DNA of 64,000 nucleotides from an uncultured Luminiphilus sp. (GTDB lineage: Bacteria; Pseudomonadota; Gammaproteobacteria; Pseudomonadales; Halieaceae). The notes beneath the pieces are model-generated. The model did not search any database and had not been told where the DNA came from. It was given only the letters and a program-made list of their open reading frames with translations. Below are positions 72 through 42,051 of this stretch, piece after piece (the first letter of the stretch is position 1; every line of letters begins with the position of its first letter). The stretch is from assembly GCA_905182485.1 (NCBI GenBank), contig CAJJBO010000007.1:63097-127096 (forward strand), in the 5' to 3' direction. A program made the translations under genes and the position numbers.

Positions 72-971
72 ATGTTGAAGTCCATTTTGATGGTTTGGGT
101 GCTTGTCCAAAATGTGCCCGCCACCCAAGAAGCGTATGAAGCGTACCTGGGTTACCAGATCGCGGATCGTGGGGTGATATCCGCTGAGCTTGCGGAGGCC
201 ATTAAACGGCCGAGATTGGCAAACCGCTCCTATGTCACGTTGGTACCTAAGTCGGGCCCACAGGTTGGGATTCGTATCATTGAAGGAGCCGATCAAGGGT
301 ATCAACCCATGCGCCGCTTGGGGTGGAGTGCCATTGAGCTATTGGTGAAGGACCCGGAGCAGCTCAGAAGTAATTTGTCTGGGTCTGCATTTACGCATTT
401 GCAGGGCCCTGATTTTCTCACCGAGCAGAAAAACATTCTCGCCATGCAGGTTTATGGTCCCAGCCAGGAGCTTTTTTATCTCACTCATATGATCGACCCG
501 GCTTTGTCATTTTTAGCACCTCAACCGAGCCCTGAACCCGTCGGTCATAGTTTTATCATGGTGATGGGCAGTCACGATATTGAAGCCAGTGTCGCGTTTT
601 TCAAGCAACACTTTGATAATCCGGTGGTGGGTCCGATTCCCTATCGTATCGGCGTGTTATCAGATGCTTACGGGGTATCGAATACAGCCGAACACCCGTT
701 GGCGTTGATATCCATGTCTGATGGTTACGGTATTGAAATTGATCAATATCCCGCAGCGGCAACGCCGGTGCCAGCGCCACTGGGTGCCCGAGGCGGTGTG
801 ATATTGGTGAGTTTGAGCGTGGATCCGGAAGGAATCACACAAGCATTACCCTGGACCCTGTCCTATCAGGATGCGGATGACTCCTCGCGTGGGGGTATTG
901 TGACCCTGCCGTCCGGGACACCATTAGAGCTTTTATGGAGCCAACCTGTATTGCCTCACTTGGGCAAGTAG
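72..971 (+). CDS. VOC/glyoxalase-superfamily protein (two-domain)
   Basis: ORF 6..971; probable ATG at 72. VOC-like segments GWSAIELLVKD and FIMVMGSHDIEASVAFF, plus GYGIEIDQYP. Confidence 0.6.
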   Translation: MLKSILMVWVLVQNVPATQEAYEAYLGYQIADRGVISAELAEAIKRPRLANRSYVTLVPKSGPQVGIRIIEGADQGYQPMRRLGWSAIELLVKDPEQLRSNLSGSAFTHLQGPDFLTEQKNILAMQVYGPSQELFYLTHMIDPALSFLAPQPSPEPVGHSFIMVMGSHDIEASVAFFKQHFDNPVVGPIPYRIGVLSDAYGVSNTAEHPLALISMSDGYGIEIDQYPAAATPVPAPLGARGGVILVSLSVDPEGITQALPWTLSYQDADDSSRGGIVTLPSGTPLELLWSQPVLPHLGK

Positions 972-1045
972 GTCTATGTTGTCTGGATATGAGTGCTGGT
1001 CAGTAAAGCACAGCACGCTGTTTTCGGGAGATTGATCAGTTTATC

Positions 1046-2452
1046 GTGGCAATGACCCTGTTTGACAAGCTCTGGGAAGAGCACGAGGTGGAAGCGCTTT
1101 CTGAGCGCCAGTCCCTTCTGTACGTCGATCGCATTTTCCTTCATGAGCGAACGGGTAGTGTGGCACTGAATAGTTTGCTCGAGCACGGCCGTTCTGTGCG
1201 GCAGCGGCAACATGCTTTTTGCACGATGGACCATATTGTCGATACGCGACCCGGACGGAGCGATGACACATTGATGCCCAGTGGTCGCGATTTTATTGTC
1301 GCCACCCGAAGCGCCGCGCATCAGACAGGCATTCAGTTATTCGACATTCAGGATCCCAATCAAGGCATCGTCCATGTGATCTCTCCAGAGTTAGGTATTG
1401 CCCTACCCGGCTTGTCAGTAATTTGCCCTGATAGTCATACCTGCACTTTGGGGGGCTCGGCGTGTTGGCCTGGGGGGTGGGGTCAACCGAGGCAGAGCAT
1501 GCCCTTGCAACGAGCACGCTTCGGGTCACTCGACCGCAAACGATGCGTGTTCAGTTTGTGGGTCGCATGGCTAAGCATGTCACCGCCAAAGATCTCATTC
1601 TCTATACGATCCGATCGTTATCTGCGTCGGGGGGTGCGGGCTACGCCATTGAGTTTGCAGGTCCTGCTATTGAAGCGCTGCCAGTTGAGTCACGACTCAC
1701 CCTCTGCAATATGGCGACAGAACTCTCTGCGTTTACGGGGTTGATTGCTCCTGATGAGCAGGTCATCGATTATTGCGAGGGGCGTCCGTTTGCACCCCAA
1801 GGCGCAGCGTGGGAGGCGGCTAGCCGTCATTGGCAGACCTTGCAAAGTGATACGGATGCCCGATTCGATTGTGAGCATCAAATTGATATTGAGTCCCTGA
1901 AACCGCAACTCACTTGGGGCACTAGCCCGCAGCACTGTATCGACTGGGATGGTGAAATCCCCCGTGCCGGAGAGGCACCGGACGAGGCAACGGCGGTCAT
2001 CTTGGCAGCAGGCACAGGCGTATATGGGCGTGGCGGCGGGACACCGTCTATCGGACTATCCGCTCGATGCCGCTTTTATTGGTTCTTGCACGAATAGCCG
2101 CCTGTCAGATTTACGCGAGGTAGCCGACTATTTAAAGAAGACGGGACATCATGTGGCACAAGGCGTGAAGGCGCTTTGCGTGCCTGGCAGCGGTGGCGTC
2201 AAGCGAGCCGCGGAAGCGGAAGGGATTGATGCTATTTTTCGTCAAGCTGGATTTGAGTGGCGAGAGCCCGGTTGCTCGATGTGTTTCTTTGCCGGGGGGG
2301 AGAGCCTTGGCGAGGGTGTGCGGGTTGCTTCGACCACCAATCGTAATTTTGAGGGGCGTCAGGGTTTGGGTGTCAGAACGCATCTTGGCAGTCCACTGAG
2401 CGTCGTAGCGAGCGCCTGTGCCGGGCATTTGTTAGCCGATATGAGCCCATGA
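1046..2452 (+). CDS. leuC: 3-isopropylmalate dehydratase large subunit-like (aconitase family), split by two frameshifts
   Basis: Three overlapping ORFs (1046-1744, 1462-2097, 1949-2452) join into Leu[61 protein letters not shown]. Shifts at the G-run ~1450 and at ~1990. Confidence 0.9.
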
Positions 2453-40466: not shown

Positions 40467-41329
40467 GACAAGCCCTCCAATCCATAGACCCGTATTGCGT
40501 TATCGCGCATGAACTTGCGACGTACCTCGGGTTTGAGCTCAAATGCATTCACTTCATCGACGGTACGCTTGAAGCGCAACACGGGAAAATCAGTGCCAAA
40601 GATCACCTTATTTTGGCCGTAAGAATTGATGAAATGTTTGACTGAATCTGGCCAGTATTTGGGACTGTGCGCGTCGGTCACAATAAAGACATTGTCGTGC
40701 TTCCAGGCCATGGCGATCATTTCGTCATGCCAAGGTATGCCCACGTGGGTGCCCAGTAACTTGAGTTCTGGGAGGTCACAAGCAATATCGTCCAAGTAAA
40801 TAGGGCGTCCAACTGAGCGACAAGGATGTTCTTTCGCGTAAATCAGTGATTGGCCTACCTGCATTTGGACCGGGATACCGAGCTCGATACATTTGGAGTA
40901 GAAGGGGTAGTACTTAGCATTATTCGGCGGCAACTCGAACCAGTGCGGATATAAGTGTGCGCCCACAAAGCCAAACTCTTTGACCGCAGTCTCTAACTGT
41001 CGCACGCCGTTCATACCCATATAAGGGTCGAGTCCGAGCATGCCCCTAAAACGGTCGGGGTACTGCTCTACTGCCCGCGACACCACCTCAAGTGGCATGT
41101 GGTAGCAGCCCGGTAAACCCACGCGACCCGCTTTGGCCGCGACGAGAAAAGCGATGTCGATACCCGCTTCATCCATCCCTTCGATCATTGCCTCGAGCGT
41201 GATGCCCGCAGAGTCATGCTTGCCCTTTACCTTCCCGACAAAGAACTCATCAGTCCAGCCGGGGCGGTGCGATAGCGCCTCGGGTGTCCAAATGTTGCAA
41301 ACGGCATCAATGGTTTGGTAGTCACTCAT
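40451..41329 (-). CDS. Amidohydrolase_2 family protein
   Basis: MDEAGID, GAHLYPHWF, GTHVGIPW, KVIFGTDFP, NAIRVY; start MSDYQT at 41329 (the longer ORF to 41821 is a spurious extension). Confidence 0.87.
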   Translation of the reverse strand: MSDYQTIDAVCNIWTPEALSHRPGWTDEFFVGKVKGKHDSAGITLEAMIEGMDEAGIDIAFLVAAKAGRVGLPGCYHMPLEVVSRAVEQYPDRFRGMLGLDPYMGMNGVRQLETAVKEFGFVGAHLYPHWFELPPNNAKYYPFYSKCIELGIPVQMQVGQSLIYAKEHPCRSVGRPIYLDDIACDLPELKLLGTHVGIPWHDEMIAMAWKHDNVFIVTDAHSPKYWPDSVKHFINSYGQNKVIFGTDFPVLRFKRTVDEVNAFELKPEVRRKFMRDNAIRVYGLEGLSSAHH

Positions 41330-41331
41330 CC

Positions 41332-42051
41332 TTATAATCCCATCCATCCAATCGCGATACCGCACCCTAGCATGGTGGCGCCGGCGGTAGAGTGACCGAA
41401 GCGCGCGAGTGCCGGCACGCGTAATCTCTCGAGTCCCAGTTGTCCGATGGCGACCGCTCCTAGCATGGTGAGCACAGTCACGATGGCAAAGACACCGGTC
41501 ACCCAAAAGATGCCGGCAACGCTTTGTGTGGCGGCTGGAAACATCAGCAGTGGGATCAGTGGTTCGCAGGGTCCGAGGACAAAAATAATGAAGATAGCCC
41601 ATGGCGTCAGTGAGCCTGACGGCGGCGCTTCGATATTGTGGCTTCGGGCTTTGTGGGCGTGAAGATGCGCATGGTAATGGCTCACGTGGCCGTGAGAATG
41701 CCACCCGGACCGGTGTTCTGGGCGTTGCCGATAGGCATGCCGAAGCCCCCAAACAAGGTACAGTGCTCCGACACCGCATAAGCTCCAGGCTGCAATATCC
41801 CCACGGAGTGTTTCGACCCATTCGAGGCGAGTGAGCTCAAGTCCGACACCAATCCCGATGGCACCCAGTACCACCGAACCCACAAGGTGTCCCGAGCCGC
41901 AGAGCAGAACAACCCGCAAGGTTTTAGACAAAGACCATCCGCGTGCGCGGGCCATTGCAATAAAGGGCAGGTAGTGATCAGGCCCCAATAAGGTATGCAG
42001 AAACGCAATGGATGCAGCCGATACAATCAAGACTATTAATTCAGGAGCCAT
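41332..42051 (-). CDS. Nickel/cobalt transporter (UreH/SodT/NicO-like)
   Basis: TM1 signature LHTLLGPDH, GSGH in TM2, His-rich loop HSHGHVSHYHAHLHAH, LGPCEP; about 6 TM helices. Confidence 0.78.
   Translation of the reverse strand: MAPELIVLIVSAASIAFLHTLLGPDHYLPFIAMARARGWSLSKTLRVVLLCGSGHLVGSVVLGAIGIGVGLELTRLEWVETLRGDIAAWSLCGVGALYLVWGLRHAYRQRPEHRSGWHSHGHVSHYHAHLHAHKARSHNIEAPPSGSLTPWAIFIIFVLGPCEPLIPLLMFPAATQSVAGIFWVTGVFAIVTVLTMLGAVAIGQLGLERLRVPALARFGHSTAGATMLGCGIAIGWMGL

What the first reader, a model, noticed from the sequence alone, without database searches (positions are those of the whole stretch)
72..42051. Candidate undescribed pathway: dispersed catabolic regulon, possibly for tetrapyrrole (bilin/chlorophyll/heme) breakdown products
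Seen: two blocks (0-8 kb and 23-42 kb) hold an unusual but chemically coherent set. Uptake: TonB receptor and two PepSY-TM proteins. Periplasmic steps: Tat flavin amine oxidoreductase, cytochrome c and DUF1838. Oxygenation: FAD monooxygenase and bicupin. Hydrolysis: amidohydrolase. Central steps: maleate isomerase-like enzyme, LeuCD-like hydratase, two CoA transferases, HMG-CoA-lyase-like enzyme, two ALDHs and a VOC protein. Three promoter regions share a TGTTATATCA-like box. Established: oxidative tetrapyrrole breakdown yields substituted maleimides (hematinic acid, methyl-ethyl/vinyl maleimide), and LeuCD homologues hydrate alkylmaleates. Recalled but unverified: DUF1838, DUF4437-type cupins and this ALDH subtype (VRNPRTG...GGSRMG) co-occur near red-chlorophyll-catabolite-reductase-like genes in cyanobacteria. 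Inference: a heterotroph scavenging algal pigment-derived pyrroles. No RCCR or heme oxygenase is present in this window.
Basis: partly seen in the sequence, partly recalled or inferred. Interest (0 to 1): 0.85.

Follow-up and report, generated by a model that had tools for sequence, protein, structure and literature searches.

The report
Marine bacterial bilin-pigment breakdown regulon
Two gene blocks in this marine bacterium share one conserved repressor-type DNA signal and travel together across many aquatic bacteria, often with relatives of pigment-handling proteins, so they likely form an undescribed route for eating open-chain tetrapyrrole pigments from algae, although no enzyme has been tested on a pigment.

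Summary
The genes are real, and the two blocks belong to one system. It extends about 23 kb upstream of the window and is one contiguous cluster in genome G018. A palindromic operator (WAATGATATATCATTW), trained on other genomes, puts 7 of its top 10 genome-wide sites in this cluster, including window 4327, 22882 and 33752. The same motif precedes RCCR operons elsewhere. Among 121 Halieaceae genomes, the cluster's isochorismatase occurs in 20 of 22 RCCR-bearing genomes and in 8 of 99 others, 7 of which carry the DUF1838 module. The window's LeuC falls in one clade with RCCR-adjacent LeuCs. CpcT-type bilin-lyase homologues occur in 39 of 48 DUF1838 genomes. Best model: two entry modules (RCCR/Rieske; DUF1838/CpcT, this genome) feed one lower route, maleimide to maleamate to alkylmaleate to acyl-CoA plus 2-oxoacid. 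Against: no RCCR was found here, the 'maleate isomerase' lacks its second cysteine, the VOC label is unconfirmed, no RCCR lay near DUF1838 in 80 cyanobacteria-like loci, and no substrate is tested. The frameshifts are likely assembly errors. Tetrapyrrole origin about 0.8; intact bilins about 0.62.

The parts
6..971 (+).
   Evidence: No Pfam hit; homologues in 11 of 65 DUF1838 loci and on pJE1 at 34%
1046..3126 (+). Second, non-housekeeping LeuC/LeuD pair; predicted alkylmaleate hydratase (LeuC broken by likely assembly indels)
   Evidence: Pfam Aconitase; 100/100 clade with RCCR-adjacent LeuCs, apart from housekeeping LeuC
3110..4302 (-). CaiB/BaiF CoA transferase 1 (two frames)
   Evidence: PF02515; orthologues at 57-67% next to LeuCD in RCCR and DUF1838 clusters
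4327..4344 (.). Operator site ATGATGTTATATCATTAA in the CaiB1/MDR divergent promoter
   Evidence: PWM score 20.9, rank 6 in the genome
4405..5401 (+). MDR-family (CurA/PTGR-like) ene-reductase (two frames)
   Evidence: Pfam and NCBIfam, below cut-off
5417..6357 (+). HMGL-like lyase (two frames); predicted alkylmalyl-CoA lyase
   Evidence: PF00682; orthologues beside CaiB1 and LeuCD
6285..7806 (+). ALDH1 of the VRNPRTG...GGSRMG type (N-terminus in another frame)
   Evidence: 16 of 121 Halieaceae genomes, including 11 of 13 with strong DUF1838; 45-47% homologues in 3 cyanobacteria-like loci
7803..8715 (+). Small ABM-family protein and an unknown protein
   Evidence: PF03992; homologues of the second in the G018 cluster
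22882..22899 (.). Operator site CTATTGATATAACTAAAA upstream of the TonB receptor
   Evidence: Score 18.9, rank 10
22958..25471 (+). TonB-dependent receptor; predicted importer
   Evidence: Pfam; TonB homologues in 35 of 65 DUF1838 loci
25642..28185 (.). Two PepSY-TM proteins (25642-26712 +, 26818-28185 -); accessory, limited to close relatives
   Evidence: 6-7 of 65 loci
28307..31040 (-). ALDH2 and FAD monooxygenase
   Evidence: orthologues in 22 of 65 loci; 33-35% paralogues in RCCR modules
31150..31926 (+). Asp/Glu-racemase-fold protein with one catalytic Cys; likely decarboxylase or tautomerase, not a canonical maleate isomerase
31929..33712 (-). Cytochrome c and Tat-exported flavin amine oxidoreductase; predicted periplasmic dehydrogenase pair
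   Evidence: oxidoreductase in 44 and cytochrome c in 27 of 65 loci
33752..33769 (.). Operator site ATATTGACATATCTTTAT in the oxidoreductase/DUF1838 divergent promoter
   Evidence: Score 22.8, rank 3; not matched by the seed 10-mer
33828..34739 (+). DUF1838; predicted exported beta-barrel, candidate bilin-binding protein
   Evidence: PF08894; model pLDDT 91.6; VIA Z 6.8-7.9 to BFA1/DUF3598, nitrobindin-like and CpeS barrels, inconclusive; one CpeT fusion among 28 long homologues
37877..42051 (-). Operon read from 42051: His-rich membrane protein (NiCoT/UreH-like by inspection), Amidohydro_2, CaiB 2, 105-aa unknown, His-tailed DUF4437 bicupin
   Evidence: same five-gene block at 51-80% identity in G018, G015, G016 and G017, within 30 kb of RCCR in G016

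Best explanation
The two blocks, with about 23 kb upstream of the window, are one conserved gene set marked by a shared palindromic operator, likely bound by the cluster's GntR/UTRA repressor, and they likely import open-chain tetrapyrroles (likely phycobilins) and would degrade them through alkyl-maleimides and alkyl-maleates to central metabolites and ammonia. Shown: genes, operator, co-occurrence, LeuC clade. Inferred, from weaker to stronger: (1) TonB receptors import the pigment, and exported beta-barrels (DUF1838, CpcT-like, DUF3598) bind it or strip it from peptides; (2) the Tat flavoenzyme with its cytochrome c, and the FAD oxidase, OYE, MDR and SDR enzymes, set the redox state of bridges and side chains; (3) the bicupin, glyoxalase-fold proteins and FAD monooxygenase cleave bridges, the ALDHs oxidise formyl ends, and Amidohydro_2 and the one-Cys racemase-fold protein decarboxylate or tautomerise; (4) two PuuE-like hydrolases open the imide ring, and the isochorismatase-family amidase and nitrilase release ammonia; (5) LeuCD hydrates the alkylmaleate (hydrolysed hematinic acid is 2-methyl-cis-homoaconitate, by structure), CaiB activates the product and the HMGL-like lyase splits it into an acyl-CoA and a 2-oxoacid. 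Relatives with RCCR, a Rieske oxygenase and a hydrolase would feed chlorophyll-type rings into the same steps 4-5.
For: One contiguous cluster in G018. Operator: 7 of the top 10 genome sites lie in the cluster; 12 shuffled matrices gave 0-2 of the top 20 against 7. A matrix trained only on RCCR-free loci finds sites in 13 of 17 RCCR loci, several directly before RCCR genes, and none in 240 kb of control flanks. G116's cluster lacks GntR and has no sites. Isochorismatase orthologue in 20 of 22 RCCR genomes and 8 of 99 others. A second LeuC in 21 of 22 RCCR genomes and 10 of 99 others. Window LeuC in a 100/100 clade with six RCCR-adjacent LeuCs. CpeT/CpcT in 6 of 13 strong-DUF1838 genomes and 0 of 108 others, and in 39 of 48 DUF1838 genomes of wider taxa. 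An operator site precedes a remote CpcT-family gene in this genome (C20:31658; E 3e-15). PuuE allantoinase (E 1e-30) and N-carbamoylsarcosine amidohydrolase (E 2e-28) are the nearest solved relatives of the upstream hydrolases. Maleimides and hematinic acid are products of chlorophyll and heme breakdown (PMC7318184, passages).
Against: No substrate, induction or activity data. No RCCR, Rieske or ICL-type module gene was found in this 70%-complete genome, RCCR is in 0 of 7 same-genus genomes and in only 4 of 48 DUF1838 genomes; RCCR and strong DUF1838 are not associated (3/19/10/89). The Rieske proteins beside RCCR match VanA_C, not the PaO Pfam (0 of 9). The genome's clear CpeT (C3:7311) lies outside the cluster and has DRQ where relatives have YRQ. 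Most of 80 cyanobacteria-like DUF1838 loci lack the cluster. DUF1838's fold matches are all under Z 8 and interleaved with outer-membrane barrels. Related genomes are not independent, so the contingency counts overstate. The step assignments rest on superfamily analogy; alkylmaleate hydration by LeuCD homologues is recalled, not confirmed in the papers read.
Confidence: 0.62

Rival explanations
1. The system scavenges only small, already broken pigment fragments (maleimides, hematinic acid, mono- and dipyrroles formed by light or oxidants), not intact bilins; the barrels bind fragments.
For: The best-supported part is the lower imide-to-malate route. This genome shows no ring-opening RCCR/Rieske module. 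Pyrrolic fragments are reported in Synechococcus DOM (PMC5442323, passages).
Against: TonB receptors, exported CpcT-like barrels and many redox and oxygenase genes share the operator or cluster, more than monopyrroles would need.
Confidence: 0.17
2. The substrate is another nitrogen heterocycle (cyclic ureide or imide, pyridine, or a pyrrole alkaloid such as a prodiginine), and RCCR/CpcT-fold proteins were recruited to it.
For: PuuE, isochorismatase, nitrilase, racemase-fold and bicupin families are typical of purine, pyrimidine and nicotinate catabolism (recalled). A HapK/RedY-like gene is in the cluster. The cluster also sits on plasmids of soil Sphingomonadaceae.
Against: Two unrelated tetrapyrrole-handling families (RCCR and CpcT) each track the same lower module and operator; the racemase-fold protein fails the maleate isomerase test.
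Confidence: 0.14
3. The system serves iron capture from heme, with the ring disposed of as a by-product.
For: TonB receptor followed by PepSY-TM genes; DUF1838 resembles nitrobindin-type barrels weakly and is fused to cytochrome-b5-like heme/steroid domains in 5 of 28 long homologues, 3 above cut-off.
Against: No heme oxygenase or Hmu-type gene among the window and neighbour proteins scanned; PepSY genes only in close relatives; the operator tracks a GntR/UTRA gene.
Confidence: 0.05
4. The two blocks are unrelated genes placed near each other by chance.
For: They are separated by 14 kb of unrelated genes.
Against: Shared operator, a single cluster in G018, and block-1 genes within 10 kb of DUF1838 in other taxa.
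Confidence: 0.02

Closest known systems
Plant PAO/phyllobilin pathway (PAO, RCCR PF06405, PDB 3agb/2zxk) and its proposed prokaryotic homologues (bioRxiv 10.64898/2026.03.19.712979)
   Same: Relatives carry RCCR homologues (E 2e-10 to 3agb) next to a Rieske oxygenase and an alpha/beta hydrolase with a weak chlorophyllase hit (E 0.0016), under the same operator and beside the same lower genes.
   Different: This genome shows no RCCR or Rieske module. The preprint (parts 1-4 of 5 read) stops at pFCC and has no mention of DUFs, CpcT, maleimides or Halieaceae. The Rieske proteins lack the PaO Pfam domain.
T-type phycobiliprotein lyase CpcT/CpeT (PF06206, PDB 4o4o)
   Same: Family cut-off passed; YRQ motif and two cysteines kept in 5 of 6 heterotroph stand-alone proteins aligned.
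   Different: Heterotroph proteins carry an N-terminal hydrophobic leader and a C-terminal extension and sit in catabolic clusters, so binding or removal of bilin is inferred instead of attachment.
Maleamate pathway of nicotinate breakdown (NicF, NicE/MaiA) and alkylmaleate hydratases (HbzIJ, DmdAB/Dml); names and activities recalled
   Same: Isochorismatase-family amidase, racemase-fold protein, LeuCD-type hydratase and, in relatives, an ICL/PEP-mutase lyase.
   Different: Second catalytic Cys missing; two PuuE-like hydrolases, CaiB plus HMGL-like lyase, and barrel proteins are added; no pyridine-ring hydroxylase among the cluster genes scanned.
(R)-citramalate CoA-transferase/lyase step (CaiB plus HMGL-like), recalled
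   Same: Same enzyme families, adjacent to LeuCD in most clusters.
   Different: No NCBIfam equivalog cut-off is reached (genes in pieces); substrate predicted to be a larger dialkyl-malate.

Membership tests
PAO/phyllobilin (RCCR) pathway | RCCR (PF06405) encoded in the genome | tested here: not met
   0 hits in G000, 70% complete; 0 of 7 same-genus genomes
PAO/phyllobilin (RCCR) pathway | Rieske oxygenase with the PaO domain PF08417 (tested in relatives' RCCR modules) | tested here: not met
   0 of 9 Rieske proteins hit PF08417; 8 match VanA_C and 1 KshA_C
PAO/phyllobilin (RCCR) pathway | RCCR catalytic acids Glu154 and Asp291 (roles and numbering recalled) | tested here: inconclusive
   One Halieaceae RCCR aligned to 3agb: the Asp is kept, the Glu is Ala
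Maleate cis-trans isomerase (MaiA/NicE) | Two catalytic cysteines | tested here: not met
   First Cys kept in 23 of 23 orthologues; second site reads TGT/TGS in the 19 of 23 where the motif was matched, against SAC in 4fq7
Housekeeping LeuCD (leucine synthesis) | Groups with the universal LeuC | tested here: not met
   Separate 100/100 clade; the genome has its housekeeping copy on C23
CpcT/CpeT bilin lyases | PF06206 above cut-off | tested here: met
   C3:7311, 87.6 bits; the C20 gene is only a remote homologue by my own profile
CpcT/CpeT bilin lyases | Bilin binding or transfer activity | not testable with these tools
   Needs assay
Calycin/nitrobindin/CpeS-type tetrapyrrole-binding barrels (DUF1838) | Clear structural match | tested here: inconclusive
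   Best Z 7.9 (rmsd 3.4, 132 aligned) to BFA1; CpeS 6.8 (rmsd 4.1, 142 aligned); Foldseek no clear match
GntR/HutC regulon | GntR plus UTRA regulator in the cluster and a conserved palindrome in its own and target promoters | tested here: met
   two sites in its promoter, ranks 1 and 2
GntR/HutC regulon | Direct binding and effector release | not testable with these tools
   Needs EMSA
VOC/glyoxalase superfamily (ORF 6-971) | Glyoxalase Pfam or fold match | tested here: inconclusive
   No Pfam hit; no structure predicted
Heme uptake and degradation systems | Heme oxygenase, HutZ or HemS genes in the genome | not tested
   Only window and neighbour proteins were scanned, none matched; no genome-wide search was run

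The most novel reading that the evidence does not exclude
Common marine heterotrophs (OM60/NOR5 and others) carry a complete, GntR-controlled pathway that strips phycobilins from cyanobacterial antenna peptides with repurposed CpcT-like and DUF1838 barrels and mineralises them through a methyl-homoaconitate-type route, sharing its lower half with an RCCR-based chlorophyll branch; this would be the missing microbial sink for tetrapyrrole carbon and nitrogen in the sea.
Probability: 0.45. Interest if true: 0.92.

Novelty: categorically new. Interest (0 to 1): 0.76.

Why it matters
What happens to the pyrrole rings of chlorophyll and phycobilins after algae die is open: the 2026 preprint calls prokaryotic steps unexplored and stops at ring opening, and phycobilin-derived pyrroles are proposed components of marine fluorescent DOM (PMC5442323). 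This gene set gives named enzymes, a regulator with an operator, and cultured carriers (plasmids pJE1 and pTomTYG65b, Novosphingobium), so the question becomes directly testable. It would also give functions to DUF1838, DUF4437, DUF3598 and heterotroph CpcT homologues. The enzymes come from known superfamilies; the novelty is the pathway.

Tried and rejected
The bare 10-mer as evidence: not above chance. Site 22683: not among the 38 sites scoring 11 or more. RCCR next to cyanobacterial DUF1838: none in 1190 ORFs of 80 loci (80 kept of 332; taxonomy inferred from neighbours such as phycobilisome linker and CpeS) by blastp, by a 92-protein Pfam scan, or by my RCCR profile, which was weakened because it included hydrolases I had mislabelled 'RCCRc'. 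My 'PaO' label for Halieaceae Rieske proteins was withdrawn. RCCR search in plasmids: no match. NF009116 does not separate the second LeuC from the housekeeping one (118 of 121 genomes), so I used copy number and a tree. DUF1838 loci on a Calothrix plasmid and in Novosphingobium P6W show no cluster. ESM Atlas gave no usable hit for the 105-aa protein and only DUF3108-like leads for an upstream unknown. The bicupin structure job had not finished after six collections, so its fold is untested beyond a weak hit to 2qdr (E 4e-5). RNA-run contigs cover block 1 but cannot show transcription. Literature: DUF1838 appears in 2 papers, both on Streptomyces depsipeptide clusters (listing only); searches for bilin catabolism with CpcT, pJE1 and linear tetrapyrrole as sole carbon source returned nothing; searches listed no such pathway. 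The library lacks most subscription papers, and the preprint's supplements are closed and could hold gene-cluster data. PMC9875883 did not mention LeuC or maleate.

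
Full report
Setting. The window is G000:C7:63097-127096 of a 2.17-Mb, 70%-complete genome. Its DUF1838 gene is 91% identical to one in a named Luminiphilus MAG, and the next relatives are Halieaceae. I took strands from my own translations, because several strands I had read from the ORF lists failed.

Observation. Exceptions: ORF 6-971 has no family hit, and the racemase-fold protein keeps only the first of the two cysteines of maleate isomerase. LeuC, CaiB1, MDR, HMGL and ALDH1 are each spread over several frames. Illumina contigs from four runs differ from the window by single-base indels there (40 gaps over 7 kb in two contigs that span the stretch), so the breaks are likely assembly errors.

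The two blocks are one system. Among 65 loci of DUF1838 relatives (up to 10 kb each side, many from close kin), the flavin amine oxidoreductase occurs in 44, a TonB receptor in 35, cytochrome c in 27, the racemase-fold protein in 23, the monooxygenase in 22, the ORF 6-971 family in 11, bicupin plus the 105-aa protein in 9, and LeuC in 7-8. Block-1 genes lie within 10 kb of DUF1838 in Congregibacter, Hyphomonadaceae and other loci. In G018 both blocks and the upstream genes form one run of about 55 kb. In G000 the cluster continues 23 kb upstream of the window: OYE, HapK-like, MDR, methyltransferase, TonB receptor, SDR, isochorismatase, two PuuE-like hydrolases, GntR/UTRA, nitrilase, DUF1330 and FAD oxidase. 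A similar cluster, with a second LeuCD, an ICL/PEP-mutase lyase and PrpD, is on plasmids pJE1 and pTomTYG65b.

Operator. A matrix from 58 sites in non-Luminiphilus loci ranks 7 cluster sites among the top 10 in G000: two in the GntR promoter, window 33752, 4327 and 22882, and two upstream; 12 column-shuffled matrices placed 0-2 of the top 20 in the cluster, against 7. The seed came from this window, so the test is not fully blind, but 33752 was not matched by the seed. Of the other three top sites, C20:31658 faces a remote CpcT-family gene (E 3e-15), C24:10693 faces a TonB receptor and a homologue of the glyoxalase-fold gene found in 18 of 80 cyanobacteria-like DUF1838 loci, and C23:9228 was not resolved. 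The window's bicupin operon has no strong site of its own. G116 lacks GntR in its cluster and has no sites, which points to GntR as the regulator.

What the substrate likely is. In one sample of 121 Halieaceae genomes (G000 included): DUF1838 in 25, of which 13 at E<1e-60, a threshold I set after seeing the score gap; CpeT/CpcT in 6, all among those 13, four of them 7-21 kb from DUF1838; RCCR in 22; the isochorismatase orthologue in 28, namely 20 of the 22 RCCR genomes and 8 of the other 99, 7 of them strong-DUF1838 genomes; two or more LeuC copies in 21 of 22 RCCR genomes and 10 of 99 others. RCCR and strong DUF1838 are not associated with each other (3 shared). In 48 of the 65 DUF1838 genomes (17 mostly close relatives left out), CpeT is in 39 and RCCR in 4. 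Kin are not independent, so these counts show a pattern, not a probability. Physically, RCCR modules (RCCR, VanA-type Rieske oxygenase, alpha/beta hydrolase, paralogues of ALDH2, monooxygenase and racemase-fold genes) abut orthologues of the lower genes in G043, G062, G072, G016, G101, G077 and G089, and G029 joins RCCR, CpeT and DUF1838 modules in about 70 kb. G016 has the window's bicupin operon and its LeuCD-CaiB-HMGL block within 30 kb of RCCR. In a 31-row tree the window's LeuC (two partial rows) falls in a 100/100 clade of 23 cluster LeuCs, six of them RCCR-adjacent, apart from housekeeping LeuC. A matrix trained only on RCCR-free loci finds 35 sites (some overlapping) in 13 of 17 RCCR loci, 21 in 7 of 11 lower-module loci, and none in 12 control stretches (240 kb). 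So two unrelated tetrapyrrole-handling families each lead into the same lower module under the same operator. RCCR and bilin reductases act on ring-opened tetrapyrroles (PMC10151467, passages).

DUF1838. The model (pLDDT 91.6) is a beta-barrel. Its best soluble matches are BFA1/DUF3598, nitrobindin-like proteins and the CpeS lyase, all under Z 8 and mixed with membrane barrels: a lead only. Of 28 long homologues scanned, one is a CpeT-DUF1838 fusion and five carry a cytochrome-b5-like domain, three above cut-off. In 80 cyanobacteria-like loci it is mostly solitary; 3 have the ALDH1 type, 2 the nitrilase, 2 the short DUF3598, and a few lie by CpeS/CpeT or a PaO-domain oxygenase; none had RCCR.

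Mechanism. Best supported is the lower route: PuuE-like hydrolases open a substituted maleimide, the isochorismatase-family amidase releases ammonia, LeuCD hydrates the dialkylmaleate, and CaiB with the HMGL-like lyase splits it. Hydrolysed hematinic acid is 2-methyl-cis-homoaconitate by structure, a natural fit for an aconitase-family enzyme, and the ICL/PrpD genes in relatives fit the analogy to the methylcitrate cycle (inference). Maleimides and hematinic acid are known pigment fragments (PMC7318184, passages). Alkylmaleate hydration by LeuCD homologues is recalled. The upper steps (binding, redox, bridge cleavage) are assigned by family only. Because this genome has the CpcT/DUF1838 set and shows no RCCR/Rieske set, I predict an already open-chain pigment, most likely phycobilins.

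What is known. The closest work is a 2026 preprint on prokaryotic homologues of plant chlorophyll-catabolic enzymes (parts 1-4 of 5 read, supplements closed); it ends at pFCC and has no match for DUF, CpcT, maleimide or Halieaceae. Ten searches listed no pathway of this kind; the library lacks most subscription papers. Earlier notes of this scan describe RCCR-linked clusters in other genomes; I read them after reaching this view, and they are unchecked AI notes, not independent evidence. What this locus adds is the RCCR-free CpcT/DUF1838 entry and the operator that ties both entries to the lower route.

Verdict. A real, conserved, co-regulated and apparently undescribed catabolic system. Tetrapyrrole-derived substrate about 0.8; intact bilins about 0.62. 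Interest 0.76.

Noticed in passing
window 37877-38935 and 41332-42051: The bicupin has a long His-rich tail and shares an operon with a His-rich membrane protein that looks NiCoT/UreH-like by inspection, suggesting a nickel enzyme; the block is conserved at 51-80% in G015, G016, G017, G018.
   Followed up: partly
window 34960-36947: Esterase and zinc alcohol dehydrogenase that look like the glutathione-dependent formaldehyde pair follow DUF1838 in 15-16 close relatives only; they might remove one-carbon bridge units or be mere synteny.
   Followed up: no
window 8866-22272: The 14-kb spacer holds unrelated genes (acyl-CoA dehydrogenase/APH/DUF6285, haloalkane dehalogenase, patatin, HIT, dtd, LysR).
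   Followed up: partly
window 60266-63811: Carotenoid-oxygenase (RPE65) gene beside thiolases, an Asp/Glu racemase (35% to one at the edge of the pJE1 cluster) and DUF4149; no link shown.
   Followed up: no
G000:C29:55000-71900: A second, paralogous set in the same genome: isochorismatase, CaiB, hydantoinase-like, methyltransferase plus its small partner, TonB receptor; no strong operator site.
   Followed up: no
G000:C22:15197-15703: Short DUF3598 protein, 58% identical to one in DUF1838 clusters of other taxa, on a contig that also holds paralogues of three cluster genes.
   Followed up: partly
L199-L200 (G064), also G012, G045, G050: 4-9 DUF1838 copies in one region with two extra LeuCD pairs, hydantoinase/oxoprolinase and beta-lactamase-like genes: an expanded version of the system.
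   Followed up: partly
G152 (locus L063): 14 CpeT/CpcT matches in one Rhodospirillaceae MAG; G151 has 7.
   Followed up: no
P0256, P0172, P0192, P0228: DUF1838 also occurs in a fungus (Phycomyces nitens record) and in fusions with a cytochrome-b5-like heme/steroid domain.
   Followed up: no
L066:1722-2369, 9294-9944, 14218-14898: Three related membrane proteins with no Pfam hit and a conserved 'LH(I/V)L' start, present in both RCCR and DUF1838 modules.
   Followed up: partly
L130:5420-7621; L176:7146-8431: In cyanobacteria-like loci DUF1838 lies within 4 kb of a PaO-domain Rieske oxygenase with DUF3598, or of CpeS/CpeT genes (each family in 2 loci).
   Followed up: partly
G000:C29:30749-34192: A gene that reads like the DNA polymerase III alpha subunit is split in three frames, in line with genome-wide assembly indels.
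   Followed up: no
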